A DNA stretch of 64,000 nt from Candidatus Hydrogenedens sp. (GCA_049968235.1 JBMFRC010000004.1:128001-192000), one strand, 5' to 3'; shown: positions 82-61,722, counted from the stretch's first letter. Numbers and translations: made by a program. The notes: generated by a model not told the origin, from the sequence alone.

Positions 82-894
82 TTAGGAACTAATTTCTAGT
101 TTTGCATTGCAAGTTAAAAGCCTTGTAAGTTCTATCTTACAAGGCTTTTTGATTTCTTCTTCTAATTTTCCAATTGAGTAAAACTTTATTTTGCCAGATA
201 TTGTATCTTTTACAATCAGACATCCTGTAATGGGGGTTGTTTCGTCTTTCCATATAAAGATTATATACTCATAAGCAGGAATAGTCCAGAAATTAAAATC
301 ATTAAGTTTTTGAGGCAGGTTCTCTTTTATTATAGATAATACCTTGTTTAAAATTTTTTTTCTTTTTTCTACTGGGGATTTCAATTTATATAGTGATTCA
401 TATACTGTCCAGAGGATTAATGATATACCTGGACTTTCATCTAGACCGTTTAAATAGTTTTTTTCGTTTAAATATTGTTTTATTTTTTCTGTTTTTCTTC
501 TGGAGTTTTCTATGTCAATTCCTACTGGGGATTTAGAATACAATGCCAATATCATCCATTTATCTGTGTGTGCAATCGAAAGGAAAATGGTTTGAGGTGG
601 GGTAGAAAAAAAATTATTATGTAATATTTCTTCTTCTCTTTTTATGGAATTATAATATCGTATATTTACAGGGTTTGTCTGCATAATGTATAGGAAAAGG
701 AGCCTACTTAATAATAATTCTTTCCTTCGTTTTTGTGATTGGCAGTTGGAAATATGGTTAGTAAATTCAGATGTAACTATTTTGTTTTTCTGAACAAGGA
801 CAGACAAATCCTGTTCTGAGAATAAATCCATAGGTATTAATAATAGGGAGATATTTTCATCCAATAAAAAATGGGGCATAAAGAAAAGACTCAT
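82..894 (-). CDS. Sfp/EntD-type 4'-phosphopantetheinyl transferase family protein
   Basis: Motifs resembling PPTase motif 2 (LSIAHTDKWMILAL), motif 3 (VGIDIE) and motif 4 (W..YESLYKL); 4-nt overlap with upstream GT-C gene. Confidence 0.5.
   Translation of the reverse strand: MSLFFMPHFLLDENISLLLIPMDLFSEQDLSVLVQKNKIVTSEFTNHISNCQSQKRRKELLLSRLLFLYIMQTNPVNIRYYNSIKREEEILHNNFFSTPPQTIFLSIAHTDKWMILALYSKSPVGIDIENSRRKTEKIKQYLNEKNYLNGLDESPGISLILWTVYESLYKLKSPVEKRKKILNKVLSIIKENLPQKLNDFNFWTIPAYEYIIFIWKDETTPITGCLIVKDTISGKIKFYSIGKLEEEIKKPCKIELTRLLTCNAKLEISS
116..150. terminator. Rho-independent terminator hairpin (aaaagccttgtaag / cttacaaggctttt stem, 6-nt loop) followed by T-run on + strand
   Basis: Perfect 14-bp inverted repeat 116-129/136-149 followed by ttttt; downstream of the + strand partial ORF. 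It lies inside the last ~15 codons of the minus-strand ORF 82..894. Confidence 0.5.
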
Positions 895-2447
895 TTCTTC
901 CTTTCATATATATGTAATGCTCTACCGGAAGGCAAAATATATTGTTTGTAAACATAGTTCTTTTGAAATTCTGCTTCTACAGCCATTTCACGGTCACTTA
1001 CAAATCGAGGTTCTTTATTTCCCGTAGCAGAGCCGAACATAATATAATCGGGTTTTCTTGAAAGGACATACTTTCCATCCCCTTTTTCATGTCCTGCAAA
1101 ACCTTTTCCTAATGTTTTTATCTCTCTATGAGCTATATGTTCATCATTAAGACCTAACATATCAATTATCTTTAAATGTGAATAATAAGCGACACTTCCC
1201 GCTGTATTTGTAGCAAGCAGGGAATTCGGTGGAACATTATCACGGAGCCATAATCCGGTTTCCTTTCCCCTCTCAGCAACGACATCAGCCACAATGCGTT
1301 CGTAAAGGTATGGGTCATTTTTTAATTGCCACAAATTAAAAATTACAATAATAATTACCAATAATAAACTACGAAAGTATGATACGCCGGGAAGGAAGAG
1401 GGAATATGCACTTACGGCAACCAATAAAGGGGTAATGGGAGTATAAAAGCGATGTGCGGGCATACAATCTCCACCTACGGATATAACATAGAGCATATTC
1501 AAAAGAACTGCTAAACTCATCGAAAAAACGACATAACCTCTTTTCTCTAATGTTTTTAGGGGAAATATTTGAAGCATAATAAAAGGAGCCCAGATGAGGG
1601 AAGTCCCTTTCAGAAAGTAGAATGCATAAGTTAATCCTCTTTTAATTTGTTCTTTTGATGAACCTACCTTTACATAGAAAGTATTGGGTAGTAACCAACC
1701 ATAATAGTTATATCTCCATATAAAATAGGGAATAAATACAAGGGAAAATCCTAATATGATAAATATAGGATTAAAGTATTGCTTTTCTTTGAAGGCGTGA
1801 AGAAATGAACAAAAGACAAGAACAGGGAGAATTATTCCTGCATCAGGACGTGACATCACTGCGAGGGCTATTACAACTCCCACAAGGAAATAACCCGATA
1901 ATAATTCTTTATTCCGTGAAATGAAAGCACCAAATAACAATATCGACAGGAAAATTAAAAAGGCGGTCATACTTGTTTCCATACCGCTCATAGCCCAGGA
2001 AGTAAAAGCACCCATAGAGCCTAAAATTAAAACACCTGCAACAGAAACGAGCCAATGCGTTCCTTTAATAATTTTATGGATGCAGGACATTAGAAATATA
2101 GTAATAAATGTAAATAGAACACCCAGAATTTTTGATGTTATAGGCAAATCCAAGCCTATTTTATGTAGTCCCGCTAATAATAGGACCCATAAAAAGCAGG
2201 TATAGCCCTCTACATATTCACCTTCGTTATAGACAATACCTTTTCCTTCGGAAAAATTTTCTGCATACCGAAATGCAATATATGCATCGTCTAATGTCCA
2301 TGGTTGTAAGTAATAGTTATACAAAGATACTAATATTAATGAAATACCAAGAGATATAAGGATAATGAACTCTCCATAACGGGAAATATTAAGTTTTTCC
2401 TTTTTCTCACCTATCTTAAAAAAGCGGAAATTTTCATAAGAATTCAT
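891..2447 (-). CDS. GT-C fold membrane glycosyltransferase (ArnT/PMT-like, polyprenyl-phosphate-sugar dependent), about 11-12 TM helices plus C-terminal soluble domain
   Basis: N-terminal TM helix followed by acidic loop motif DDAYIAFRYAENF typical of GT-C first periplasmic loop; many TM segments; ~110-aa hydrophilic C-terminus. Confidence 0.6.
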   Translation of the reverse strand: MNSYENFRFFKIGEKKEKLNISRYGEFIILISLGISLILVSLYNYYLQPWTLDDAYIAFRYAENFSEGKGIVYNEGEYVEGYTCFLWVLLLAGLHKIGLDLPITSKILGVLFTFITIFLMSCIHKIIKGTHWLVSVAGVLILGSMGAFTSWAMSGMETSMTAFLIFLSILLFGAFISRNKELLSGYFLVGVVIALAVMSRPDAGIILPVLVFCSFLHAFKEKQYFNPIFIILGFSLVFIPYFIWRYNYYGWLLPNTFYVKVGSSKEQIKRGLTYAFYFLKGTSLIWAPFIMLQIFPLKTLEKRGYVVFSMSLAVLLNMLYVISVGGDCMPAHRFYTPITPLLVAVSAYSLFLPGVSYFRSLLLVIIIVIFNLWQLKNDPYLYERIVADVVAERGKETGLWLRDNVPPNSLLATNTAGSVAYYSHLKIIDMLGLNDEHIAHREIKTLGKGFAGHEKGDGKYVLSRKPDYIMFGSATGNKEPRFVSDREMAVEAEFQKNYVYKQYILPSGRALHIYERKK

Positions 2448-7921: not shown

Positions 7922-9253
7922 TTATTTTTTAATTTCAACGAGCCCGAAAGTCATTGATGCTTCTGCAACGACTTGATTTTCTACAGAAGCAATTACTCTT
8001 GCTTTGAACAAATCATTTCGGTAATACAACATCTCTGCTTCTACAACAAGTTGGTCTCCGGGAACGACTAAGCGTCTTAGTGAAGCATTCTCTATCCCAA
8101 TGAAATATGCTTGATAAAGTGGGGGTTCTCCATTTTCACGGAATATAAGGACAGAAGAAACCTGTGCCATGGCTTCAAGAATTAAAACACTGGGCATTAC
8201 AGGAACATCAGGCCAGTGTCCTTGAAAGAATGGCTCGTTTACAGTTACATTTTTGATACCCACTACTTTTTTCATAGATGTAAATTCTATAATTCTATCC
8301 ACCAGGAGAAATGGGTAGCGATGCGGTAATATTCTTAATATTTTGTTTACATCTAAAACAGGGATTTGTCGGTGAGCAGTGGGTCTCGGGTCATGAACCG
8401 CATAAATGCCATATCCGTTTAAATATACTTTTTTAATTTGTTTTGTAAACATGACATTTTTTTCATGTCCGGACTTGACACCGATAATATGTCCAATTAG
8501 AGGTCGCCCTAAAAGATAGGTATCTCCAAGCAAATCAAGAATTTTATGGCGAACGAACTCATCCGGGAAACGAAGTCCATCATTTAGAATTTCTTCATCA
8601 CCAATAACGACTGCACTTTCAAGACTACCTCCCATAATCAATCCCTGTTCTTTTAACATTTTTACTTCTTTCAGAAAACAAAAAGTTCGGGCGGGGGCGA
8701 TTTGAGACATAAAGGTTTCTTCGTTTACGGGGAAACTTGCATACTGGGTTCCGATGGCTACATGGTCGTATGCAATAGTCATTGTTACTCGTAATTCATC
8801 GGAAGGGAGAATATTTAAGGTAACTTCATCCTGTCTATAATAAACAGGTCTATCCACAAGCAGTGCCCTTTTTGGCTCTTCTTGTTCGGTAATTCCTGCT
8901 CTTAAAAGGCAATTCATTACAGGGAGGGCACTACCATCTCCATTGGGTATTTCTTCATTGTCGAGTTCTATATATAAATTATCAATACCTAAACCTGCCA
9001 TTGCTGCTAAGCCATGTTCAACGGTGCGGACTTTAGCACTACCAATACCTATTGTCGTTCCTCGTGAGACATCAACAACATGGTCAATATTAGCAGGGAT
9101 AGCGGGTTTACCAGCCATATCTGTTCGTATAAAAATGATACCTGTATCGGGTGGAGCAGGTTTGAATGTTACTGTGGTCAAACTTCCACTATGTAATCCT
9201 ACTCCTGAAAAAGATACTTCTTTGCTAATGGTTCTTTGGTTTTTCATACGCAA
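7922..9253 (-). CDS. lpxC-fabZ: Bifunctional UDP-3-O-acyl-GlcNAc deacetylase / 3-hydroxyacyl-ACP dehydratase (LpxC-FabZ fusion)
   Basis: N-terminal LpxC sequence (ISKEVSFSGVGLHSGS..., HEKNVMFTK) and C-terminal FabZ hot-dog (ILPHRYPFLLVDRI, GHWPDVPVMP); overlaps lpxD by 10 nt. Confidence 0.85.
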   Translation of the reverse strand: MRMKNQRTISKEVSFSGVGLHSGSLTTVTFKPAPPDTGIIFIRTDMAGKPAIPANIDHVVDVSRGTTIGIGSAKVRTVEHGLAAMAGLGIDNLYIELDNEEIPNGDGSALPVMNCLLRAGITEQEEPKRALLVDRPVYYRQDEVTLNILPSDELRVTMTIAYDHVAIGTQYASFPVNEETFMSQIAPARTFCFLKEVKMLKEQGLIMGGSLESAVVIGDEEILNDGLRFPDEFVRHKILDLLGDTYLLGRPLIGHIIGVKSGHEKNVMFTKQIKKVYLNGYGIYAVHDPRPTAHRQIPVLDVNKILRILPHRYPFLLVDRIIEFTSMKKVVGIKNVTVNEPFFQGHWPDVPVMPSVLILEAMAQVSSVLIFRENGEPPLYQAYFIGIENASLRRLVVPGDQLVVEAEMLYYRNDLFKARVIASVENQVVAEASMTFGLVEIKK

Positions 9254-11055: not shown

Positions 11056-13371
11056 TTAAAATTGTAAACCTGTGGTCAGATGTAACTTACCATTTCCCTG
11101 GTCTTCATCTGGGTTAAGCGGTATGCCGTAATCTATACGAATAGGTCCAAATTTTGGAATTTCGGCGCCCAATCCAAGTCCGGCACTATACTTTAGGTCG
11201 GATAAATCAAAGTCATTTTCATCCTTCCATACACCACCCATATCAACAAAGGAGTAAATACGGATCATATTTGTTAATTTATATTTTAATTCTAAATTAT
11301 TGACCAGACGGAGATTCCCTCCTTCAGCAATCCAGTCTCCAAACCAGCCATATTCACGAATCTTAGGACCGATATCACGGTAATCGTATCCACGGACTGT
11401 AGTAGTTCCACCTGCATAAAATCTGTAAATCAATGGGATATAATCGGAATCGCCATATTCAGTCATCCAGCCTTCACGGGTTCTTAACATTAAGACCCAT
11501 TTTTGATTTTTGTCTAATGCCTTAAACCATGATAGGTCTAATTGCAACTTAACAAAATTATTGTCGCCTCCGAGTCCTGCAAGCTCAGAACTCAAGATGG
11601 CATTGATACCCCGGGATGGGTCTCTGGGACGGTCCAAAGTATTTCTTTCAAGACTCAATATAGTGCTAACTGTGGTTGAATTTTCGGTTTGTCTACGAAT
11701 TTCTCTATTAATGAACCATGGCAAATCACTAACATCTACATCTTCTACACGGAATGATAAACGGGCGGTGTTATATAATGAAAGAGCTTTTCCAAATCGT
11801 ATTTGTCCACCTGCCTGATTTTCCCGATAATCCGCACCACCCCTTACCCAATAGGATTCGTTATAGAGGTCAACACCTAAAGATATAGGGTAACCTAAAA
11901 TTTCAGGGTCTGTAAAACTTACATTATAGCGGTCTCTTCTATCCCCAAGGTGAACGCGAGCTGAAAATTGCTGTCCACCACCAGAAAAATGGGGCCAGTT
12001 GGTAATGTCAAAGTTTCTCAAACGAAGTTGTGCAAATCCACCAACACCTTCATCTGTGCTATAGCCTGCCCCAAATAAAAATGAATTGGTTTTTCCTTCT
12101 TCAACATCGACAAGCAAATTGGAATATCTTGTGTCAATCTCATCATCTGTAAGTGTGATACGAACTTTATCAAAATAGTCTGTATTTTCAAGCCTTAACC
12201 GACTGGATTCTATAGAGGAGCCATCATACCTTTCACCGGGCTTTATTAACATTTGTCGGCGAATGACATCATCTTGAGTAACATCGTTACCGGTAATATC
12301 TATTTGTTTAATATATTTTAATTCGCCTTCTGATATATTATATACGATATTTGTTGTTTTATTTTGTTCATCTTTTGATACCTGTGGTGTAACTGTTGCA
12401 TCGACGTAGCCACTATCGCGATATTTGATTTCTAATTTTTGGGCATCTTTAGCAACCTGCCCTTTATTATGAATATCTTCAGGTTTTACTTTTATTTCTT
12501 TCTCGAATTCGTCATTGTCGTATACAGTATTATTTGCATACTGAATGGAATTAACTTTGTACTGTTCTCCTTCTTCTACAAATAATTTAATTTTTAATTT
12601 TTTACCTCCATCTGTGTAGAGGACATCTGTATGTGTTACCTTTGCATCTAAATATCCGTTATCTCCATATTTATTTATGACATTTTCCAAATCATTTTCG
12701 AATTTTGTTTCATCATATTTTCCACCTAAAAACCACCAAGCAGGTTTTGTCTTCATTGCCTTTTTAATTTGTCGGTCTGATAAAGCGATGTTTCCTTCGA
12801 TTTCAATTTCTTTAATACGTGCTTTTTTACCTTCATCAATGGAGTATATAATCCGAACAAGTCCGGGTTCTATTTTTTCCGTTATGACATCAACTTTCGT
12901 ATTTGCATAACCTTTGCCCTGATACATATTAATAATAGATTTTCTGTCTTCTTCACATAATTCTGGAATAAAGGAAGCACCTCTTTTCTGTTTTAAGGTA
13001 GGTTCTATGACACGTGGTTTTATCTTCTTGCAACCTATTATTTTTACATCTGCAATTCTTCGTTCTTCTTCAACAATGAATACAACCTTCACTCCATTTC
13101 CTTCTGGAGTAACTTCTGCATCGACTTTTACAAAATAACCCAGACCGTAAATTCTTTTTAAATCTCTTGCGATAGAACGAGGATTTAAGTTTTGTCCCGT
13201 TTTTGTTTCTACTTTACCCAAAACTACCTGTTCATTTATTTTTTCTAATCCTTTTACCTGAACAGCAGTTATTTCCTTTCCGGCGTATTCTTCTAATTGA
13301 GCCATGAGATTACTGCAAAACAGAAAAATAGCGAAAAAATAACCTACATACATGTATCTTGTGTTCAACAT
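11056..13371 (-). CDS. bamA: Outer membrane protein assembly factor BamA (POTRA repeats + Omp85 beta-barrel)
   Basis: 771 aa, signal peptide, repeated POTRA-like modules, C-terminal beta-barrel ending in aromatic residue (…TTGLQF). Confidence 0.85.
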   Translation of the reverse strand: MLNTRYMYVGYFFAIFLFCSNLMAQLEEYAGKEITAVQVKGLEKINEQVVLGKVETKTGQNLNPRSIARDLKRIYGLGYFVKVDAEVTPEGNGVKVVFIVEEERRIADVKIIGCKKIKPRVIEPTLKQKRGASFIPELCEEDRKSIINMYQGKGYANTKVDVITEKIEPGLVRIIYSIDEGKKARIKEIEIEGNIALSDRQIKKAMKTKPAWWFLGGKYDETKFENDLENVINKYGDNGYLDAKVTHTDVLYTDGGKKLKIKLFVEEGEQYKVNSIQYANNTVYDNDEFEKEIKVKPEDIHNKGQVAKDAQKLEIKYRDSGYVDATVTPQVSKDEQNKTTNIVYNISEGELKYIKQIDITGNDVTQDDVIRRQMLIKPGERYDGSSIESSRLRLENTDYFDKVRITLTDDEIDTRYSNLLVDVEEGKTNSFLFGAGYSTDEGVGGFAQLRLRNFDITNWPHFSGGGQQFSARVHLGDRRDRYNVSFTDPEILGYPISLGVDLYNESYWVRGGADYRENQAGGQIRFGKALSLYNTARLSFRVEDVDVSDLPWFINREIRRQTENSTTVSTILSLERNTLDRPRDPSRGINAILSSELAGLGGDNNFVKLQLDLSWFKALDKNQKWVLMLRTREGWMTEYGDSDYIPLIYRFYAGGTTTVRGYDYRDIGPKIREYGWFGDWIAEGGNLRLVNNLELKYKLTNMIRIYSFVDMGGVWKDENDFDLSDLKYSAGLGLGAEIPKFGPIRIDYGIPLNPDEDQGNGKLHLTTGLQF

Positions 13372-42031: not shown

Positions 42032-45000
42032 TCAGAAACAAAAACCATCCTCACTTTCATCTGGACAGGGATAATATCTCCCCATATTAAATATTTGTAT
42101 TGTGCGAATTAATTCGGAGAGAGAAATGACCCAATCCTGAGGATTGTAATCGCTGGAATGGGGTTGACAGTCGTGGTTATCACCATACCCGGGAAGATAG
42201 CCATCCTCAAGTTTAGAACTATTATCACAGTGATAAGCGCCCATGTTAAAGAACTGGACTATTCTTAATAGTTCTTCCAAATCAATCTTACCGTTTCTGT
42301 TTATATCTGAACTATGGAAATAGATGTATTCGCCTTCGAGAACCCCTTCTGTGTTCCCTTCTCCTTCTATAAGACCTTCTATATTTCCTTCTACAATTCC
42401 CTCGCCTTCACCAGTCCCCTCAAAAATACCTTCTACTATTCCTTCCTGTTGTGTGCATTCTTTATAATTTATAAAATCTGACAACTCAAAATTGGGGGGA
42501 ATTCCTTCACCAGCAGATAATCCTGCAATAAAACTTGAAGAAACGCAGTTAAGCCATGTGATAGAAATTGTTCCATCATAAAACATTTCTAACTGAATAT
42601 TGGCTTCTCCCGTACCATATCTTGGGACACTGGAAAAGGTAACAACAAAAGCATCTGTATCAAACTGATATGAAATAGAACCTCCTTTGCTTGGGTCTAA
42701 ATCATCAAACATAAGGGATATTCTTGGTAAGGAAAAATGAATTTCTAAGGATTCGGAATAGTCATCATTACCTTGTGTAAAGGTAACATAACCATTACTT
42801 CCCACATAACACCGGGAATATTTCACCCCATAAAGATAAACATAAGTTTCTAATGGGAAGTCAATCTGGGTAAAAGCATCATCTCCAATAGTAATAGGTG
42901 TTGAATTCTTTGTAGTTCTTGGGAAATCTTGCGCACTCTGTAAACATACATGATATTTATCTGAGGAATTATCGGGGGTGAATATAATCTGGTGATTAGA
43001 TAAAGGAACAGTATCTACAACATCTGAGGTATAGTAATAAGTAAAATAATCCGGTTGATGTAAAGTAGTAAAGGTATCACAATTTGTTGAATATTCGTTT
43101 CCTGCAATATCTGTTAATACAATCCTGTATGTATATTCAGTATCCGAACTCAAACCTGCAATTAAAAATTTATGATTTGTATTCATAGCAAGAGAATTTT
43201 CATATTGTTCAAAGGGAACCGAACATTGACTCCCATATTCAAAACGGGCAGAACAATTTTCATCAGTTTCTAATTGCACATCTACACTTTTTATATCTGG
43301 AATTATTGATAAAAGTAATAATTGAGGTGGGTAAATATCCGTTGTTGATTCGGCAGTGATTGTGTGAGGAGACCCTGATTCTGTCAATTCATCATAATAT
43401 TCTGCAGTAATTAACCCGTTATGAACAACAGAAAGAAGTCCATCATTATTTCCTGTGGCTAAATCTGTAAGTTGAATATTTCCTTCAAAAAACCCTGAAA
43501 TCTGCGTTTCAGTCAATACTATCTGTTCATTATCTCCGCTATCGGACCTAACCGGGATAAATATTTCTCCCTGTCCGGATAAGTTAGCATCTGCCAGGAC
43601 AAGAGTTGCTATTGAAGAGCCATTATAAATTGGTTTATCCCATTGTATAGTGCCATCTGAACCTGTAATTACAGGTAAATCTGTTTGATAGGGGACAATG
43701 GGGTTCCCCGTTATAGTCAATTTAACAATAGGAATAACTCCTGGAGGAGAAAATGCAACCAGATTACTCCCGAAATTAGAACGGACAGCACCTAATAATG
43801 TATTGGAATTAGAAAGTGATATAACTGCATTTGCCCATTCTATATAAACGGGAAATGGTAAACCATTTGGGTCAATCCCTGAACCATGAGTAATACTCGG
43901 ACTTTGTAGGATACCAGCCCATATTTCGGTAGAAGGGTCTCCTAAAAGGTTATACATTTCAAAATATCGTTGTGTGGTTGATTTGTTACCGTAATAATTG
44001 AAAAATTTTAATTTTCCATTAAGTATCATCCCTGCAGTCCATGTTTTCTTTAATGAAAAGAAACTTTCTATAACAGACTTCTCTAATATATCATCTTCCT
44101 CCCAATATGAAGTTACAGAACTCCCTACAAAACCAACCCCGCCTGCGGATACTCTCTGCCATGTTTCCCCAAAGCATTCAGGTTTGGCGTATTGCCCTGT
44201 ATCACATGCAAAACTAAGGACCCACGGATATACAGTATTGGTAAAGGAATTAATATCACTTTGTGATATAGGGGGACCATCTGCCCAACTCACATCAGAG
44301 CCATGCCCGGAATATACAATCCATCCTCGTCCAGAATTTACTGCAGTAATTACATCTGAAGTTGTTGCTCCATAAGTTACCGTATACAATTTTTGAGAAA
44401 TAAATTCTGCTGGTTCAAAGTAATTTGAGACCACATAATTGTGTGTTGCCTCTGTAATACTATAATTATCTGAACCCGTTAAAAAAGAGGCTTTTATATA
44501 CCATGGCTCCGGGAGTGTCCATTGTGCTTTTTCGTATTTGAGAATCTTGTTTAAGGCATTTTCTAATTGATTTGAGGTTGAGACGCTAATCCTACCTACC
44601 CATAAATCCGGGGTATAATATTCGTCGCCATCTACAATAGAGTAATATAAGTCTGTTATGGGATTATTGGGAGCAGAACCTGCTGGAGCCTGAATATAGT
44701 AAGGGTCGCCTACCAGGACTACAAATGTAGGCGGGACCTCCCAATTCGTATATGCCTGTTTGATATAATCTCGAATAGCAGTAGCATTTGTTCCTATATT
44801 TGCAACATTTTCTACGGTTGTAATAAAACCTCTTTGTGTTTTCCATTGAACCCATTCATTAAGTTTGCTATTCCCTACAAAAGAAGAAGCGACAATAACA
44901 AGCATTCCCACAGGAATATTATAACTTTTGCTCTCTGACTTTTCCATTAATGGAGAGGAATTTAAAATAAAGGGTTCCCATAAATCATCAATGTATTTTG

Positions 45001-45637
45001 AAAAATATTTTTTGTCTCGTGATGAAAAAGTTTTTGGAGTATCCCAACGAATAGTTAATAAGAGGTTTTTTGTTATGTAAATTTTTGAATTTAGGGGTTC
45101 ATAACTTATGGGATAATAGGTTATTTGATAGAGGTTTTTTCCACGAACATTTCCAAAAGGTTCTATTTCTGCAACTTTTTCTCCCTGTTTTTCATTTGAA
45201 TTGTAGACATTATTATTTTTTGTAAGTTTCGGTTTTTGAACTCCCTCTCTTTTTTCCCATGGAGGTTGAACAGGATAGAGAGGATACTGAATTTTTAGTT
45301 CTTCAGGGAGGGTTTGTTCCTCATAGGCCAGAGATACATTGGTTGCATTAGAAGGTAGTTCGATATATCTTCTCCATGCAGGCAATTCTGGATTGCCAAT
45401 AGAACCTGATGTTCCCATGCCCGGAATGATAATTTTTGTAAAAGTATTTTCTTCTATAGTTTCTTTTATGATTTCAGGGTTAGAAGTCAAGTTGATTTGA
45501 ATCTTAATTCCCCCTGTTTCAGGAAAAGTAGTTACGCGAACGACATCTCCTTTTGCTTCAAAAATTACCAATATTATTAGAGGTAATACTATCAAAAGAT
45601 TATTATTAAACCACAAAATACTTTTTTTCCTTTTCAT
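42032..45637 (-). CDS. Secreted multidomain clan-CD cysteine peptidase (C25/gingipain-like) with FN3-like domain, EG-rich linker and dockerin-like C-terminal repeats
   Basis: Signal peptide; His-Gly dyad (YSGHGS) and Ala-Cys (SFACDTG) spaced as in C25/C11 peptidases; (EGxx)n repeat near residue 1060; two ~23-aa repeats DINRNGKIDLEELLRIVQFFNMG / ...ISLSELIRTIQIFNMG resembling dockerin Ca-binding repeats. Confidence 0.55.
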   Translation of the reverse strand: MKRKKSILWFNNNLLIVLPLIILVIFEAKGDVVRVTTFPETGGIKIQINLTSNPEIIKETIEENTFTKIIIPGMGTSGSIGNPELPAWRRYIELPSNATNVSLAYEEQTLPEELKIQYPLYPVQPPWEKREGVQKPKLTKNNNVYNSNEKQGEKVAEIEPFGNVRGKNLYQITYYPISYEPLNSKIYITKNLLLTIRWDTPKTFSSRDKKYFSKYIDDLWEPFILNSSPLMEKSESKSYNIPVGMLVIVASSFVGNSKLNEWVQWKTQRGFITTVENVANIGTNATAIRDYIKQAYTNWEVPPTFVVLVGDPYYIQAPAGSAPNNPITDLYYSIVDGDEYYTPDLWVGRISVSTSNQLENALNKILKYEKAQWTLPEPWYIKASFLTGSDNYSITEATHNYVVSNYFEPAEFISQKLYTVTYGATTSDVITAVNSGRGWIVYSGHGSDVSWADGPPISQSDINSFTNTVYPWVLSFACDTGQYAKPECFGETWQRVSAGGVGFVGSSVTSYWEEDDILEKSVIESFFSLKKTWTAGMILNGKLKFFNYYGNKSTTQRYFEMYNLLGDPSTEIWAGILQSPSITHGSGIDPNGLPFPVYIEWANAVISLSNSNTLLGAVRSNFGSNLVAFSPPGVIPIVKLTITGNPIVPYQTDLPVITGSDGTIQWDKPIYNGSSIATLVLADANLSGQGEIFIPVRSDSGDNEQIVLTETQISGFFEGNIQLTDLATGNNDGLLSVVHNGLITAEYYDELTESGSPHTITAESTTDIYPPQLLLLSIIPDIKSVDVQLETDENCSARFEYGSQCSVPFEQYENSLAMNTNHKFLIAGLSSDTEYTYRIVLTDIAGNEYSTNCDTFTTLHQPDYFTYYYTSDVVDTVPLSNHQIIFTPDNSSDKYHVCLQSAQDFPRTTKNSTPITIGDDAFTQIDFPLETYVYLYGVKYSRCYVGSNGYVTFTQGNDDYSESLEIHFSLPRISLMFDDLDPSKGGSISYQFDTDAFVVTFSSVPRYGTGEANIQLEMFYDGTISITWLNCVSSSFIAGLSAGEGIPPNFELSDFINYKECTQQEGIVEGIFEGTGEGEGIVEGNIEGLIEGEGNTEGVLEGEYIYFHSSDINRNGKIDLEELLRIVQFFNMGAYHCDNSSKLEDGYLPGYGDNHDCQPHSSDYNPQDWVISLSELIRTIQIFNMGRYYPCPDESEDGFCF

Positions 45638-47557: not shown

Positions 47558-48463
47558 TCATGCGCGAGGATGTGCATTTTTATGGGCTTGTGTAATTCGT
47601 TCTACACTTACATGGGTATAAATTTGAGTAGTAGAGATGTTGGAATGTCCAAGAAGTTCCTGAACAACTCGTAAATCAGCCCCTCTATTTAATAAATGTG
47701 TTGCGAAGGTATGTCGTAAGGTATGAGGGGTAACTTTATCCGATAATCCTGCTAATGATGCATAATGTTTTATAATCCGCCATAGAGTTACTCTGCTCAT
47801 AGGTTTGCCTGTTTGGGATAGAAATACCGATGGGGATTTTACTTTGCCTGTTTCTCTTACTCTGAGCCAGTTCTGTATTCTTTCTATGGCTATGTTTCCT
47901 ATGGGGACAATGCGAATCTTATCTCCTTTACCCCGAACTCTCAACATTCCTTCATTTAGAGATAAATCATGTATCGTAATGTGACTTAGTTCACTAACTC
48001 TTAAACCACAAGAATAGAAAAGTTCCAATATTGCAATGTCTCTTTCTTTATTTCGGGGCGAAGTTTCTGCGACTTTGAATATTTGTTCTATTTCGCCTTC
48101 TGTCAAAAAATGAGGTAACTTTTTGGATAAACGGGGTGTATCCAATCCATCAATAGGATTTTTATCGATTATTTGTTCATTATGGAGAAACTTATAAAAC
48201 CCACGTAATGTGCTGAGATGTTGTGCTAAAGAACGAGCCGATATTCCCCGTTTTTGAAGAGTTAAAAGATATTCTAAAATCAAGTGCGAATTGATTTTTA
48301 TGAGTTCATCGATATTTTTTTCACTGATAAAAAGGCTGAATGAATTCAAGTTTCGTCTGTATGTTAAAAGCGTATTCTCTGATAATCCCCATTCAAATAC
48401 AGCTAGTTCAAGGAAATAATCAATAAGTGGTTTAAACTTTGAGGTTATATCATTCTGGTTCAT
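47558..48463 (-). CDS. xerD: Tyrosine site-specific recombinase XerD
   Basis: 301 aa; R..HxxR..Y catalytic motifs (HTLRHTFATHLL, LLGHSNISTTQIYTHV); core-binding N-terminal domain. Confidence 0.8.
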   Translation of the reverse strand: MNQNDITSKFKPLIDYFLELAVFEWGLSENTLLTYRRNLNSFSLFISEKNIDELIKINSHLILEYLLTLQKRGISARSLAQHLSTLRGFYKFLHNEQIIDKNPIDGLDTPRLSKKLPHFLTEGEIEQIFKVAETSPRNKERDIAILELFYSCGLRVSELSHITIHDLSLNEGMLRVRGKGDKIRIVPIGNIAIERIQNWLRVRETGKVKSPSVFLSQTGKPMSRVTLWRIIKHYASLAGLSDKVTPHTLRHTFATHLLNRGADLRVVQELLGHSNISTTQIYTHVSVERITQAHKNAHPRA

Positions 48464-56645: not shown

Positions 56646-58091
56646 TCATTTATCTTTTTTAGGAATTTTCAAATCACGAGGTGATGAATTGTATATACCG
56701 ATGTAGTCTAAAGTTGGACAAGCAAGTGCTTTATCTATTTGTATTCTTACCTCTTTTGTTTTTTGTTCTGGGATACAATGGATTCTTTTGTAGCCAATGG
56801 TAGTGGCAGTACTTACCTTTTCCCATTTTGCTTTTTTATTTTTAACCCATATTGAATGTTCTTCTACTCTTTGTCCTAATGAAATTTGCTCTTTTATAAC
56901 TACGCGGTCGAATACAATTGGGGATTTGAATTTTAATGTAATATATCCAGCAAGGATATGGTCATCTGTAGCCCAGTATTTATTATCATTTTCTTTTAAG
57001 CACATTTCAGGAGCATAGTCTGGAGCGTTACCGCGAATATTACTTGCATCCCAATCTGCTTTCTCTGCAAGATTTGTTTTGAATGTTTCATCCAGAACAG
57101 AACGCCACTCTAAAAGGCGTTCAACATCTGGTTCCGGTAAATGACCGGAACGGTCCGGAGACACATTCAGTAGGAGAACAGCACCTCTTCCTACAGAGTA
57201 ATAATAAATCCGTAATAGTTGATTTAATGACAACAATTTCTTTTCGCCATCTGTATGAAAGAACCATTGTCCCTGTCGAATAGGGACATCACATTCCGCA
57301 GGATACCAAACTTTTTTCCCTTCTCTTTCTTGCACGTTCCATAGTGTTTCTGGTGCCAAACCATCTTCATTTCCTACCCAACGAATATCGGGCCCACAAA
57401 TAGCAATCAAAGCATTGGGTTGTTTTTCTTTTATCAATTTATAGTAGCCATCCCAATCATATACATGCCCTTTGGTTCCGGCACCATCAAACCATACCTC
57501 GAACACCGGTCCATAATTTGTTAACAATTCCTGAAGAAGGTTCTTAAAATATTCATCATAGGCTTTGTTATCATTATAACGTGGTTCATGACGGTCCCAT
57601 GGGGAGAGATAAAAGCCGAAATGGATACCAGCTTTATTACATGCCTCTGCAACACCTTTTACAACATCACCTTGTCCATTTGCCCATGGAGAGAAACGGA
57701 CACAATAATCTGTATGCATTGTGGGATATAAAACAAACCCGTCATGATGTTTTGCGGTTATTATTAAATAACCCATATATACCTTTCTGGCTACATCTGC
57801 CCACTGTTGTGGATTGAAATCTGTCGGATTAAAACTATCAGCAGGTTTTGTTCCGTCTGTCCATTCTTCATTGTGGAAAGTATTAATTCCGAAATGGCAA
57901 AACATACCCATCTCCTGTTGGTGCCATTTGACCTGCTGAGGAGTTGGGATAGGATATAACGGTTCAGGAGGGCTTATTCTACGAAGCGAACAACATGTCG
58001 AATTGTCTTTACAATCGGCATGTATATTTTCTGCATATACAATCATAAATACGACGATAGTAATAATACTTATTTTAGTAAGCAGGTTCAT
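56646..58091 (-). CDS. Alpha-L-fucosidase (GH29), secreted, with C-terminal beta-sandwich domain
   Basis: Signal peptide; GH29 hallmark ITAKHHDGF; catalytic-domain WFDGAG region. Confidence 0.8.
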   Translation of the reverse strand: MNLLTKISIITIVVFMIVYAENIHADCKDNSTCCSLRRISPPEPLYPIPTPQQVKWHQQEMGMFCHFGINTFHNEEWTDGTKPADSFNPTDFNPQQWADVARKVYMGYLIITAKHHDGFVLYPTMHTDYCVRFSPWANGQGDVVKGVAEACNKAGIHFGFYLSPWDRHEPRYNDNKAYDEYFKNLLQELLTNYGPVFEVWFDGAGTKGHVYDWDGYYKLIKEKQPNALIAICGPDIRWVGNEDGLAPETLWNVQEREGKKVWYPAECDVPIRQGQWFFHTDGEKKLLSLNQLLRIYYYSVGRGAVLLLNVSPDRSGHLPEPDVERLLEWRSVLDETFKTNLAEKADWDASNIRGNAPDYAPEMCLKENDNKYWATDDHILAGYITLKFKSPIVFDRVVIKEQISLGQRVEEHSIWVKNKKAKWEKVSTATTIGYKRIHCIPEQKTKEVRIQIDKALACPTLDYIGIYNSSPRDLKIPKKDK

Positions 58092-59187: not shown

Positions 59188-61722
59188 ATGAATGACGAAG
59201 AGAAAAATAAAGAACCTACTTCTTTAAATTCTCCTGATAACAATATTAATTCTTCATCATCGAATCAGGAGAAAGGGGTTGATGAGGTATTAGACCAATC
59301 CTTTATTGACTCTTTATTTCAAAATGCTCAAAAAGAGGCATCCCCACCTCCCATTGATACTCCATCCCCAGAAAGTTCACCTCAAACTTCTACCCCTGCA
59401 AAGGAGGAAATTCCTCCTAATTTAGCACAGAAAATAGTTGCTCCTCCTAAAAAACAAGATGCAGAAGTGGCATTACTCAGTCAGGATGAAATTGAGGAAT
59501 TGATTGAGTTAGCACGAAAAGAGGATAAAGAACGGCAAAAGAAGAAACAGGAAATATTAGAACAAATCACCAGTAAAGCAGTGGCTCAGCCCAGTCAAAA
59601 ACCTGTTTCTAAGAAGAAAATTAATTTAAAAAAATACCTCATCCCTATTGGTATCAGTCTGATATTAGGACTAACGAGTGGGATATGGACTTATATTTAT
59701 CTCATGAAGAATCGTCTAATTCCTGTGGAAGAGATAGCACCTACATATACGAAAGACCTTTCTACAGCAAAGGAATATGCGAAGATACTTATTGATGACA
59801 AACAATACTTAAACGCAATATATATATTAGAGAGGGCTTTGAAAAATAATCCACAATCTTCCCCTGATAAAGCAGATGCTCAATTCCTTTTAATTAAAGC
59901 GAAATACCTTTCCGGAAGAATAAATCCGGGAACAAAGGAATTTCAAAAGTTCATAGATGAAATAGAAACCGTAACAAAAGAAAATCCTGACCATCCTATG
60001 GCACCTTATGTATTCCTCTGGAAAGGGAAACTTCATGAGGCTGATAATTTTCCATATCCCGCTATAGAAGCGTATGAACGAATCGTTCAAACTTATCCTC
60101 AATTTGAAGGGCGAGATGAGGCTTTGTTTGCATTAAGTCGTCTTGAATTACAGATGAACAACACTGTGAAATCAGCCCAGTGGGGACAGCAATTGATAAA
60201 AGAATTTCCTGCTTCCCCTTATGCATTAGAGGCAAGGTTCAATCTTGCGGAATCATATCGTTTGACAGGATTATTGGAAGATGCGAGAACATTATATATT
60301 CGAATTGCAGATATGGCACCTGACACAGAAATAGGTGCTCGGGCAATTCTCCGTTTATCTGAAATGGCATATAAACAAGGGAGATATGAACAGGCATTAA
60401 TCCCATTAGAAACAAAATTAAATTATATTCGTCAGTTCCAATATAACGATGAAGCATATTTATTGTTAGCAAAAACATATAAGGCACTCGGAAGATTAGA
60501 GGAAGCCAGAACTGCTTTGCAAGATTTACTGTTTTTTTTCCCTGCTTCCGAAGTTCATCCTCATGCATGGGTAGAACTAAGTCAGATATATTACTCCTTA
60601 GGAGATAAAGAAAAAGCATTTCAAACCGCGAATGAGGCGAGTCTTTTATATCCAAACCATCCTGATGTATTGGCAAATAAAGCAGACTTTTTAGCTTTAC
60701 AGGGTAATTCATATGCTTCTGCTATTGCTTATCTTGAAGCAGAAAAAAATGGAGGAATCAAACCATCATATTTACTAAAAGCAGGGCAACTATTAATGAT
60801 AAATTCTCAACTTGAAGAGGCGATAAAAGCATTTGATGAATTGAAGAATCGCTATTATGGGACAAAAGAGGCATTAAAAGGAAGTATTGAAAGAGCAAAA
60901 TGTCTGTATAAATTAGGGAAGTTTTCTTCTGCTGTTTCTTCGCTTGAAGATTTGAAGAAATTAACTCCCGCTACAGAACCTGAATATAAAAGTATATTAC
61001 AGGAATTGACGACGATGTATTTTGAACTTGGTCTTAAAGAAACATCTGCCGAAATTGCAAAAGAGTGGTTCCAAAAAGCGGATACCCCGGAAGAAAAGAT
61101 TAATTCTGCCATGTTCCTGATTAATAATGATAATACAAATATAGTTTATTCCAATCTGTCATCTATTGATTTATCTACCGTTAACAAGGAAAAAACAGTA
61201 AATTTTCTTTATTTGTTATCACAAAAATTATTAACAACGCTTCCCTCTGAAGGATTGGCTCTTTTAGAACAGGTGTATTATCAATATCCTGAATTTAGGT
61301 CATCCGATATCCGCTATCATTTGTTAGAAACATATATCCATACGGAACGAACAACTTCAGCAAGGCGAATTATTCAAGATTGGGAAACAGAACTGGATAC
61401 ACAAAAAGAATCTATTCAGAATTTTATTGATGGAGAAATTTTATGGGGTAATTATATGTTTGAAAGACAAGAATGGGAACCTGCGTTGCAGGCATATTCT
61501 ACTGCTATTGAAATTTCCGAGAAAAATGGGGAACAATTGCAGGGAATACGATTTCATACGGATTGGGCAAAATATCAGAGAGCCAATATTCTTGCTCAAA
61601 CATCTCTGATGGAGGAATCTATAAAAATACTTGATGAGTTGATACGAGCCAAATCAGCATTGACATCTTTAGCCCAGGTAAAACTAGAACAAATTAAACT
61701 TGAAATGATTGCAAAAAAGTAA
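59188..61722 (+). CDS. Large TPR-repeat protein with low-complexity S/P-rich N-terminus and single TM anchor
   Basis: 844 aa; N-terminal SSSSN/PPPIDTPSPESSPQTSTP tract, TM (LIPIGISLILGLTSGIWTYIYLM), then many TPR-like repeats. Confidence 0.6.
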   Translation: MNDEEKNKEPTSLNSPDNNINSSSSNQEKGVDEVLDQSFIDSLFQNAQKEASPPPIDTPSPESSPQTSTPAKEEIPPNLAQKIVAPPKKQDAEVALLSQDEIEELIELARKEDKERQKKKQEILEQITSKAVAQPSQKPVSKKKINLKKYLIPIGISLILGLTSGIWTYIYLMKNRLIPVEEIAPTYTKDLSTAKEYAKILIDDKQYLNAIYILERALKNNPQSSPDKADAQFLLIKAKYLSGRINPGTKEFQKFIDEIETVTKENPDHPMAPYVFLWKGKLHEADNFPYPAIEAYERIVQTYPQFEGRDEALFALSRLELQMNNTVKSAQWGQQLIKEFPASPYALEARFNLAESYRLTGLLEDARTLYIRIADMAPDTEIGARAILRLSEMAYKQGRYEQALIPLETKLNYIRQFQYNDEAYLLLAKTYKALGRLEEARTALQDLLFFFPASEVHPHAWVELSQIYYSLGDKEKAFQTANEASLLYPNHPDVLANKADFLALQGNSYASAIAYLEAEKNGGIKPSYLLKAGQLLMINSQLEEAIKAFDELKNRYYGTKEALKGSIERAKCLYKLGKFSSAVSSLEDLKKLTPATEPEYKSILQELTTMYFELGLKETSAEIAKEWFQKADTPEEKINSAMFLINNDNTNIVYSNLSSIDLSTVNKEKTVNFLYLLSQKLLTTLPSEGLALLEQVYYQYPEFRSSDIRYHLLETYIHTERTTSARRIIQDWETELDTQKESIQNFIDGEILWGNYMFERQEWEPALQAYSTAIEISEKNGEQLQGIRFHTDWAKYQRANILAQTSLMEESIKILDELIRAKSALTSLAQVKLEQIKLEMIAKK

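What the first reader, a model, noticed from the sequence alone, without database searches (positions are those of the whole stretch)
42032..45637. 1201-aa secreted C25 (gingipain-like) cysteine peptidase carrying dockerin-like repeats and an (E-G-x-x)n linker
Clan-CD landmarks (YSGHGS His-Gly, SFACDTG Ala-Cys) sit in a large secreted protein with these further parts:

- an FN3-like segment;
- a striking tandem EGIVEGIFEGTGEGEGIVEGNIEGLIEGEGNTEGVLEGE tract;
- two about 23-aa C-terminal repeats (DINRNGKIDLEELLRIVQFFNMG and NPQDWVISLSELIRTIQIFNMG) shaped like dockerin calcium-binding helices.

Gingipain-family proteases normally end in a Bacteroidota T9SS CTD, which is not apparent here. A dockerin-type anchor on a C25 protease would imply a cohesin-bearing scaffold and a proteolytic cellulosome-like complex. 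Another possibility is a different sorting signal in this lineage.
Basis: partly seen in the sequence, partly recalled or inferred. Interest (0 to 1): 0.55.

Follow-up and report, generated by a model that had tools for sequence, protein, structure and literature searches.

The report
Gingipain-type protease with unnamed calcium-loop tail
This is a conserved secreted gingipain-family protease of the uncultured bacterium Candidatus Hydrogenedens, and its "dockerin-like" tail is not a true dockerin but an unnamed calcium-loop, disulfide-containing module found on thousands of secreted proteins of that phylum.

Summary
The 1201-aa ORF (42032-45637, minus strand) is real. It is a clear C25 (gingipain-family) peptidase zymogen: signal peptide, C25 propeptide, and a catalytic domain whose D390/H445/C478 align with the Kgp triad D388/H444/C477. 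Four predicted beta-sandwich domains follow, then a 41-aa (E-G-x-x)n spacer and a 98-aa C-terminal module.

The dockerin reading holds only loosely:
- The module is an internal duplication (E = 2e-10) of an EF-hand-type calcium loop plus helix plus Cys-stapled hairpin.
- It fails Pfam Dockerin_1, and a profile-profile test against true dockerins gives 13.6% probability.
- No cohesin was found.

The module itself is an unannotated family with no Pfam or NCBIfam model. About 2,970 protein clusters carry it, with many copies per Hydrogenedentota genome. It is usually at the extreme C-terminus of diverse secreted proteins, often behind E/G-rich linkers.

Best reading: a portable calcium-binding attachment or targeting module that fills the slot held by T9SS CTDs or dockerins on C25 peptidases of other phyla. 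The protease is ordinary. The module is a modestly interesting new domain family.

The parts
42032..45637 (-). Complete CDS (1201 aa plus stop codon) of the C25-family peptidase precursor
   Evidence: ORF listing. A 100%-identical partial protein, P0001, is annotated 'C25 family cysteine peptidase [Candidatus Hydrogenedens sp.]'.
45548..45637 (-). Probable Sec signal peptide, residues ~1-30: n-region KRKK, hydrophobic core L14-F26, then EAKG. No lipobox Cys.
   Evidence: Hydropathy scan. There is no other TM-like segment in the protein. The cleavage site is inferred, not predicted with a dedicated tool.
44996..45541 (-). C25 propeptide (residues 33-214), an inhibitory prodomain of the zymogen
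   Evidence: Pfam Propeptide_C25, 2.2e-11, 43.7 bits against a cutoff of 22. Also matches the Kgp propeptide structure 5mun_A, 3.4e-12.
43925..44905 (-). Peptidase_C25 catalytic domain (residues 245-571). Catalytic D390 (nt 44468-44470), H445 (44303-44305), C478 (44204-44206). S1-pocket motif S510-Y511-W512...D515 (D515 = nt 44093-44095).
   Evidence: Pfam 6.2e-58. The alignment to Kgp 4tkx places these residues on Kgp D388/H444/C477 and S511-Y512-W513...D516. The Kgp triad is per PMC12385285 and the pocket residues per PMC13266019. All are invariant in 19 orthologues.
43661..43915 (-). Ig-like beta-sandwich directly after the catalytic domain (residues ~575-659), equivalent to the gingipain IgSF domain
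   Evidence: Peptidase_C25_C (PF03785) hits in 12/19 orthologues. AF2 model is all-beta with pLDDT 92. Boundaries are approximate.
43331..43654 (-). Second beta-sandwich domain (residues ~662-769)
   Evidence: AF2 model. Foldseek matches only generic Ig/FN3/macroglobulin-type arrays.
43061..43324 (-). FN3-like beta-sandwich (residues ~772-859)
   Evidence: Weak Pur_ac_phosph_N and Big_13 hits at 814-852. Pur_ac_phosph_N in 10/19 and fn3 in 3/19 orthologues. AF2 model.
42452..43048 (-). Fourth, larger beta domain (residues ~864-1062) with the conserved motif SNGY(V/I)TF. Possibly NIDO-like.
   Evidence: AF2 model pLDDT >90. NIDO hit in only 1/19 orthologues, E = 0.009, so the assignment is tentative.
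42329..42451 (-). Acidic (E-G-x-x)n low-complexity spacer, residues 1063-1103
   Evidence: Regex and composition. Length varies from 0 to ~75 aa among orthologues. E/G-rich linkers precede the module in 49/112 family members. The DNA shows only a weak 12-bp periodicity.
42167..42316 (-). Module repeat 1 (residues 1108-1157): canonical 12-residue EF-hand-type loop D1111-E1122, helix 1120-1132, hairpin with C1137...EDGY...C1157
   Evidence: Conservation in 278 module instances: D 100%, N/D 94%, D/N 97%, E 100%, Cys 99-100%. AF2 model pLDDT 93.3. Sub-threshold EF-hand Pfam hits.
42035..42160 (-). Module repeat 2 (residues 1160-1201): 13-residue variant loop D1163-E1175 (DYNPQDW motif), helix 1173-1185, terminal hairpin C1191...EDGF-C1200
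   Evidence: Duplication of repeat 1, E = 2e-10. Conservation data. AF2 model.

Best explanation
The gene encodes a secreted zymogen of a gingipain-family (MEROPS C25, clan CD) cysteine endopeptidase of Candidatus Hydrogenedens, a diderm bacterium.

Proposed pathway:
1. A Sec signal peptide takes the protein across the inner membrane.
2. The N-terminal C25 prodomain keeps it latent until it is cleaved off.
3. The Kgp-like Cys478-His445-Asp390 triad does the catalysis. Asp515 sits at the position of Kgp's S1 Asp516, which suggests specificity for basic (Lys-type) residues.
4. Four beta-sandwich domains and an acidic (EGxx)n spacer form a stalk.
5. A 98-aa C-terminal module ends the protein. It is an unnamed domain concentrated in Hydrogenedentota: two tandem copies of a calcium loop, a helix and a disulfide-stapled hairpin.

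I propose that the module binds calcium, folds in the periplasm or outside the cell, and acts as a portable attachment or targeting module. It would tether the protease, and dozens of other secreted proteins per genome, to a common receptor on the cell surface or in a complex. That is the role a dockerin or a retained T9SS CTD plays elsewhere.

Shown here: the domain identities, the aligned catalytic residues, the module's conservation, abundance and position, and its lack of dockerin membership. Inferred: protease activity and specificity, calcium binding, disulfide bonds, and the tethering role.
For: Protease:
- Pfam C25 and its propeptide score well above threshold.
- PDB Kgp matches at 2e-35 with the triad and pocket residues aligned. 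These residues are invariant in 19 orthologues.
- The N-terminus looks like a signal peptide.
- Synteny is perfect (HU-C25-Ppk1-...) in orthologues at 81% and 58% identity, so this is a core, vertically inherited gene.
- BamA, LpxC-FabZ and a BamD-like gene in the window show a diderm organism.

Module:
- Internal duplication, E = 2e-10.
- AF2 pLDDT 93.3.
- Loop 1 keeps the EF-hand ligand positions 1/3/5/12 in 94-100% of 278 instances, and the four Cys are 89-100% conserved.
- 2,971 clusters at 50% identity carry it, 2,408 at E <= 1e-10.
- At least 566 loci in species-representative genomes, with up to 11 per MAG within the best 80 alone.
- 126/140 representatives have it within 5 aa of the C-terminus, and 83/104 have an N-terminal hydrophobic stretch.
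- Cargoes are diverse extracellular domains: InlB B-repeats, Ig-like, beta-helix, LRR, M4/M14 peptidases, sulfatase, GH10.
- It also occurs N-terminally, internally and in tandem, as binding modules do.
- Homologous C25 peptidases of other phyla carry a T9SS CTD (PF18962), a true dockerin (PF00404) or a PEP-CTERM-like tail (hydrophobic helix then basic residues, identified by eye) in the same slot.
- Dockerins are the nearest solved folds by two methods.
Against: - No receptor has been identified. No cohesin was found in the sequences scanned, and no gene family recurs next to 80 module-bearing loci.
- Calcium binding and disulfides are read from sequence and a model, not measured. The model coordinates could not be inspected.
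- The strong bias toward the extreme C-terminus (90%) fits a secretion or sorting tag equally well.
- Signal-peptide calls rest on a crude hydropathy rule.
- The taxonomic restriction rests on depositor labels. Some MAGs are labelled 'Nitrospirales' or 'uncultured bacterium'.
Confidence: 0.55

Rival explanations
1. The module is a C-terminal secretion or sorting signal, a functional analogue of the T9SS CTD. An outer-membrane translocon of Hydrogenedentota would recognise it, and it might then be cleaved, with or without covalent attachment of the cargo to the surface.
For: - It lies within 5 aa of the C-terminus in 126/140 representatives.
- It is multi-copy per genome on diverse secreted cargo.
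- It occupies the slot that PF18962 T9SS CTDs hold in roughly 30 of the 120 listed C25 homologues from other phyla.
- The organism is a diderm, so cargo must cross an outer membrane.
Against: - About 10% of representatives carry it N-terminally (sulfatase P0374, LRR protein P0344), internally (GH10 P0255) or as 2-4 tandem copies (P0241, P0242). That is unusual for a terminal export signal.
- The fold is helical with calcium loops, unlike the beta-sandwich CTDs.
- No translocon or sortase gene is linked to module genes.
Confidence: 0.25
2. One reading: a true dockerin that plugs the protease into a cohesin-bearing scaffold, giving a proteolytic cellulosome-like complex.
For: - Two duplicated calcium-loop plus helix segments without an entering helix, the F-hand arrangement of dockerins.
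- Dockerins dominate the weak structural hit lists.
- 9/74 family members give sub-threshold Dockerin_1 hits.
Against: - The query has no Dockerin_1 hit at E <= 1.
- hhalign against true dockerins gives 13.6% probability over 25 columns.
- The PDB profile search finds only EF-hand loops, at E >= 0.046.
- Loop position 12 is Glu in 100% of instances, which is EF-hand style.
- The module is ~30 aa longer than a dockerin and has four conserved Cys.
- No cohesin appeared in 21 window ORFs or 68 module proteins.
Confidence: 0.08
3. The module has no targeting role. It would be a calcium-dependent folding or stability element, or a calcium sensor, that happens to be appended to many extracellular proteins.
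For: - EF-hand-type loops are strictly conserved.
- No partner could be found.
Against: - It is separated from the cargo by long flexible acidic linkers of variable length.
- It is attached to structurally unrelated cargo. An intramolecular stabilising role is therefore unlikely.
- The polar helix residues E, R, Q and N are invariant in both repeats across hundreds of paralogues. That suggests a shared external ligand.
Confidence: 0.12

Closest known systems
Lys-gingipain Kgp / Arg-gingipain RgpB of Porphyromonas gingivalis (MEROPS C25)
   Same: - N-terminal prodomain (PF08126).
- Caspase-like catalytic domain (PF01364) with the Cys-His-Asp triad and the SYW...D pocket motif aligned.
- An Ig-like domain directly after the catalytic domain.
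   Different: - Only about 30% identity in the catalytic domain by inspection of the alignment.
- No haemagglutinin/adhesin domains and no T9SS CTD.
- Instead it has three further beta-sandwich domains, an EG spacer and the calcium-loop module.
- The host is a free-living candidate phylum, not Bacteroidota.
Type I dockerin (Pfam PF00404) of cellulosomal enzymes
   Same: - A usually C-terminal module behind a flexible linker.
- An internal duplication of a calcium-binding loop plus helix, with no entering helix.
- Present on many different secreted enzymes of one organism.
   Different: - Fails the Pfam model, and hhalign gives 13.6%.
- 98 aa against about 65 aa.
- Each repeat adds a GxYxC...EDG[YF] hairpin, giving four conserved Cys.
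- Loop position 12 is Glu, not Asp. The dockerin Asp is from my own knowledge, not tested here.
- Loop 2 has 13 residues.
- No cohesin was found.
EF-hand calcium-binding motif (PF13405/PF00036/PF13202)
   Same: Loop 1 is a textbook D-x-N-x-[DN]-G-x-I-x-x-x-E loop followed by a helix. It accounts for the only sequence-level matches in Pfam (52/74 members) and in the PDB.
   Different: - All hits are below the gathering thresholds (21.8 against 25 bits).
- The AF2 model has no entering helix.
- The domain is extracellular and disulfide-containing, and its repeats are spaced 52 residues apart.
T9SS C-terminal domain (PF18962 / TIGR04183)
   Same: It holds the same position on homologous C25 peptidases and on many other secreted proteins of a phylum, and is multi-copy per genome.
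   Different: Unrelated fold and sequence, not strictly terminal, and no T9SS evidence here. PorU models score 56-64 bits against cutoffs of 420-450.

Membership tests
Peptidase family C25 (clan CD) | Match to the Peptidase_C25 catalytic-domain model above the curated threshold | tested here: met
   PF01364 at 197.2 bits against a cutoff of 23, residues 245-571. Kgp and RgpB structures match at 2e-35 and 1e-29.
Peptidase family C25 (clan CD) | Catalytic His and Cys (and Asp in Kgp) aligned with the known catalytic residues | tested here: met
   H445/C478/D390 align with Kgp H444/C477/D388 (triad per PMC12385285). They are invariant in 19 orthologues.
Peptidase family C25 (clan CD) | N-terminal C25 prodomain | tested here: met
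   PF08126 at 43.7 bits against a cutoff of 22. Kgp propeptide 5mun_A matches at 3.4e-12.
Gingipains sensu stricto (Porphyromonas Kgp/Rgp) | T9SS C-terminal sorting domain, plus haemagglutinin/adhesin domains in Kgp and RgpA | tested here: not met
   No PF18962, TIGR04183 or adhesin-domain hit at E <= 1.
PorU-type T9SS sortase (NF033707 / NF052324) | Full-length match above the NCBIfam cutoff | tested here: not met
   64.1 and 56 bits against cutoffs of 420 and 450. Only the shared C25 core aligns.
Dockerin type I (PF00404) | Match to the Dockerin_1 profile | tested here: not met
   The query has no hit at E <= 1. 9/74 family members hit, best E = 0.008, all sub-threshold. hhalign against 8 dockerin-like tails of planctomycete C25 homologues (two flagged PF00404, the rest picked by eye) gives 13.6% probability over 25 columns.
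Dockerin type I (PF00404) | Two duplicated calcium-loop plus helix segments forming a compact ~65-aa domain | tested here: inconclusive
Dockerin type I (PF00404) | A cognate cohesin encoded in the same genome | not testable with these tools
   No Cohesin hit in 21 window ORFs or 68 module-bearing proteins. A whole-genome scan was not possible.
EF-hand | Canonical 12-residue loop with ligands at positions 1, 3, 5 and 12, followed by an exiting helix | tested here: met
   Loop 1, D1111-E1122: D 100%, N/D 94%, D/N 97%, E 100% in 278 instances. A helix follows. Loop 2 is a 13-residue variant.
EF-hand | Pfam EF-hand models above the gathering score, and a helix-loop-helix with an entering helix | tested here: not met
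   The query's best score is 21.8 bits against 25. The best PDB profile hit is E = 0.046. The AF2 model shows coil before loop 1.
T9SS CTD (PF18962) | Profile match and a beta-sandwich fold at the extreme C-terminus | tested here: not met
   No hit. The module is helical with small hairpins.

The most novel reading that the evidence does not exclude
The 98-aa module is the address tag of a previously unrecognised surface-display or secretion system that spans the phylum Hydrogenedentota. It would be a calcium-dependent, disulfide-stapled dockerin analogue docking dozens of hydrolases and adhesin-like proteins per cell onto a non-cohesin receptor on the outer membrane. The EG spacers would act as stalks. 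The syntenic, universally conserved C25 peptidase that carries the tag might even take part in processing tagged proteins, as the C25-type sortase PorU does in T9SS.
Probability: 0.3. Interest if true: 0.7.

Novelty: new variant of a known kind. Interest (0 to 1): 0.45.

Why it matters
The protease is a routine new member of family C25, and NCBI already annotates the identical partial protein as such. The finding matters because of its tail.

The tail is a confidently folding domain (pLDDT 93) that is abundant (about 3,000 clusters, many copies per genome) and concentrated in one lineage. It has no Pfam or NCBIfam model and no solved relative, and I found no literature mention of it.

Like the T9SS CTD, PEP-CTERM and dockerin when they were first recognised, it gives a ready in-silico marker for the secretome or surface proteome of an uncultured phylum common in anaerobic digesters. 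It also poses a concrete question: which receptor or machinery reads it?

There is a practical point too. The E/G-rich linkers in front of the module seem to break short-read assemblies, which leaves many 'partial hypothetical' fragments in public MAGs.

Tried and rejected
- NCBIfam on 74 module sequences gave only spurious hits such as FolE and FliH.
- The PDB sequence-profile search gave only marginal EF-hand loops.
- A search for a partner by gene context found nothing. ORFs around 80 module loci (540 kb) were clustered by all-vs-all BLASTP and no family recurred. The largest cluster, 6 ORFs, looks like an antisense or low-complexity artefact.
- Orthologue synteny showed only housekeeping neighbours.
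- Literature searches combining Hydrogenedentes or Hydrogenedentota with dockerin, secreted, peptidase or secretion system returned nothing on this module.
- Tandem Repeats Finder on the EG tract shows only a weak 12-bp period with 3.2 copies. The tract is therefore not a recent DNA-level expansion.
- Rfam and tRNA scans of the window were empty.
- I considered PorU-like sortase identity for the protease and rejected it on score.
- The NIDO assignment for the fourth beta domain stays tentative, at 1/19 orthologues.
Full report
**Observation.** The ORF at 42032..45637 (minus strand, ATG start, 1201 aa) exists as described.
- YSGHGS holds His445 and SFACDTG holds Cys478.
- The (E-G-x-x)n tract spans residues 1063-1103, with 12 Glu and 12 Gly in 41 residues.
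- The two C-terminal repeats lie at 1111-1133 and 1165-1186. They are the cores of a longer internal duplication: 21/42 identical, BLASTP E = 2e-10.
- A 125-aa ORF on the opposite strand inside the gene has no support and is taken as spurious.

**Source organism and context.**
- A 100%-identical partial protein, P0001, is annotated 'C25 family cysteine peptidase, partial [Candidatus Hydrogenedens sp.]'. Full-length homologues at 50-81% identity come from related MAGs.
- The window is about 36% GC. It carries no rRNA, tRNA or Rfam element.
- It encodes BamA with five POTRA domains, an LpxC-FabZ fusion and a BamD-like TPR lipoprotein. The organism is therefore a diderm with LPS.
- The immediate neighbours are housekeeping genes: HU upstream, then polyphosphate kinase, nitroreductase, DeoC-type aldolase, SDR and Orn/DAP decarboxylase downstream. 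ComB phosphatase, XerC/D-type recombinase and a TPR protein lie on the other side.
- This order is identical in orthologous loci at 81% and 58% protein identity. The gene is a vertically inherited core gene of the genus, with no linked partner.

**The protease.**
- Pfam gives Propeptide_C25 (33-214, 43.7 bits, cutoff 22) and Peptidase_C25 (245-571, 197 bits, cutoff 23).
- PDB sequence search gives Kgp (4tkx, 2e-35), RgpB (1cvr, 1e-29) and the Kgp propeptide (5mun, 3e-12).
- In the printed alignment, query D390, H445 and C478 fall on Kgp chain positions 160, 216 and 249, which are Asp388, His444 and Cys477. PMC12385285 gives these as the Kgp catalytic triad.
- Query S510-Y511-W512...D515 falls on Kgp Ser511-Tyr512-Trp513...Asp516. 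PMC13266019 lists these residues as lining the Kgp ligand pocket.
- That Asp516 sets Lys specificity is my recollection of the Kgp structure paper and was not verified here.
- All these residues are invariant in 19 orthologues.
- The N-terminus (KRKK, then a 13-residue hydrophobic core, then EAKG) looks like a Sec signal peptide. There is no lipobox Cys and no other hydrophobic segment.
- PorU models match only the shared core, far below their cutoffs.
- Conclusion: an exported, probably active, gingipain-family zymogen.

**The middle region.** Residues 575-1062 fold confidently (AF2 pLDDT 92) as four all-beta domains. Structural neighbours are generic Ig/FN3/macroglobulin-type arrays. Orthologues give Peptidase_C25_C (12/19), Pur_ac_phosph_N (10/19), fn3 (3/19) and NIDO (1/19). 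It is one of four sandwich domains forming a stalk.

**The C-terminal module.**
- Thirteen of the closest C25 homologues end in the same ~98-aa sequence.
- A profile of it recovers 440 proteins in the word-indexed database. Most are 'partial hypothetical proteins' of Hydrogenedentes or Hydrogenedens MAGs, several from the same MAG, and most have no Pfam domain.
- An exhaustive HMMER scan of 1.84 billion representatives finds 2,971 clusters at E <= 1e-3 and 2,408 at E <= 1e-10.
- A scan of species-representative genomes finds at least 566 confirmed loci. The best 80 come from 18 assemblies, with up to 11 per assembly.
- In 126 of 140 representatives the module ends within 5 residues of the C-terminus.
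- 83 of 104 full-length-looking carriers have an N-terminal hydrophobic stretch, and 49 of 112 have an E/G-rich segment just upstream.
- Cargo domains are diverse and typically extracellular: InlB B-repeat, bacterial Ig-like, PASTA, beta-helix, LRR, GLUG, CHRD, P-domain, M14 and M4 peptidases, FGE-sulfatase.
- About 10% of carriers have the module at the N-terminus (sulfatase P0374, LRR protein P0344), internally (GH10 protein P0255) or in 2-4 copies (P0241, P0242).

**Anatomy of the module.**
- Each repeat reads H-S-x-D...(loop)...L-S-E-L-L-R-x-I-Q-F-[FY]-N-x-G-G-Y-x-C...E-D-G-[YF].
- Across 278 instances, loop 1 (D1111-E1122 in this protein) keeps D (100%), N/D (94%), D/N (97%), I/V (96%) and E (100%) at EF-hand positions 1, 3, 5, 8 and 12.
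- Loop 2 (D1163-E1175, DYNPQDW...E) is one residue longer.
- The four cysteines (1137, 1157, 1191, 1200) are 89-100% conserved (the printed numbering there is offset by 2).
- The AF2 model with a 74-sequence alignment is confident (pLDDT 93.3, pTM 0.82). It shows coil-loop, helix 1120-1132, a hairpin, then loop, helix 1173-1185 and a terminal hairpin.

**Is it a dockerin?**
- Sequence says no. The query has no Dockerin_1 hit at E <= 1. Only 9/74 family members give sub-threshold hits, while 52/74 give sub-threshold EF-hand hits.
- NCBIfam has nothing.
- A PDB profile search returns only EF-hand loops at E >= 0.046.
- hhalign against an alignment of the dockerin-like tails of planctomycete C25 homologues (two flagged PF00404) gives 13.6% probability over one 25-column loop-helix.
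- No cohesin domain appeared in 21 window ORFs or in 68 module-bearing proteins. No gene family recurs next to 80 module loci.
- I therefore do not file it as a dockerin. It is a separate family that shares the F-hand-type calcium loop plus helix duplication.

**Comparative argument for function.** The same C25 core carries different C-terminal tails in different phyla:
- T9SS CTDs (PF18962) in Ignavibacteria-, Zixibacteria- and Bacteroidota-type homologues, roughly 30 of the 120 listed.
- True dockerins (PF00404) or dockerin-like tails in planctomycete homologues.
- A hydrophobic helix plus basic tail in P0023.
- This module in Hydrogenedentota.

The slot is thus the 'where does the secreted protein go' slot. 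The module is multi-copy per genome, sits behind flexible spacers of variable length (0 to ~75 aa among orthologues), and is occasionally non-terminal or in tandem. The best reading is a portable calcium-dependent attachment or targeting module. A cleaved sorting signal is the main rival. The exact role, the receptor and the route across the outer membrane remain inferred.

**Novelty.** The protease is a new member of a known family and is already annotated as such. The module is, as far as Pfam (2025 copy), NCBIfam (June 2026), the PDB and the searchable literature show, undescribed. I class the whole as a new variant of a known kind, namely a calcium-loop docking or sorting module on a secreted enzyme, with moderate interest.

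Noticed in passing
window 42329-42451; proteins P0001 and P0122: In the public NCBI MAG this gene is split at the EG tract. P0001 (1091 aa, 'partial') diverges after ...EGIVEGIF, and P0122 (103 aa, 'partial') starts at VLEGEYIYF.... Many module hits are similar 'partial' fragments that begin in E/G repeats, so these linkers seem to break short-read assemblies.
   Followed up: partly
window 11056-13371 (-), 7922-9253 (-), 59188-61722 (+): BamA (Omp85 with 5 POTRA domains), an LpxC-FabZ fusion protein and a BamD/YfiO-like TPR protein. The organism is a diderm with lipid A synthesis, which matters for how the protease reaches the surface.
   Followed up: partly
homologues P0019-P0022 (C-terminal ~60 aa): C25 homologues at ~36% identity end in a different conserved tail, PADLNxDWRVxISEAIxYLxGWQxGxNP...PPLCW. 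It has a single EF-like loop-helix resembling half of the module and may be a related, also unnamed, C-terminal domain.
   Followed up: no
homologues P0014, P0015, P0023: Further alternative tails on the same C25 core. P0014 and P0015 end in ...KLKYGxVG...WGWTTAxxLGVSY. P0023 ends in a hydrophobic helix followed by RMRRAGR, which is PEP-CTERM-like.
   Followed up: no
P0241 (2552 aa), P0242 (356 aa), P0247-P0251: Some proteins carry 2-4 copies of the module. P0242 is little more than three tandem modules. These could be adaptors or assembly artefacts.
   Followed up: partly
loci L001, L005, L007, L009, L011-L013 etc. (assemblies CAZJTZ01, CAZLII01, CAYYRW01, CAYXPO01, CAZZMK01, CAZMVU01): MAGs deposited as 'uncultured Nitrospirales bacterium' hold up to 11 module loci each, as the Hydrogenedentota MAGs do. 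The label is probably a placeholder or a misassignment.
   Followed up: no
window 891-2447 (-): A 518-aa ORF with no Pfam hit at E <= 1e-4.
   Followed up: no
window 47558-48463 (-): A tyrosine recombinase (Phage_integrase plus SAM-like N-domain) sits in the same syntenic position in orthologous loci L081 and L082. It is more likely a XerC/D-type housekeeping recombinase than a mobile-element integrase.
   Followed up: partly
window 56646-58091 (-): An alpha-L-fucosidase with an F5/8 type C (discoidin) domain that lacks the C-terminal module. Not all candidate extracytoplasmic hydrolases in this genome carry the tag.
   Followed up: no
loci L016/L050, L054/L061, L011/L046, L019/L042: Module-bearing genes are sometimes adjacent or within a few kb of each other on the same contig, as small tandem arrays of tagged genes.
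   Followed up: no
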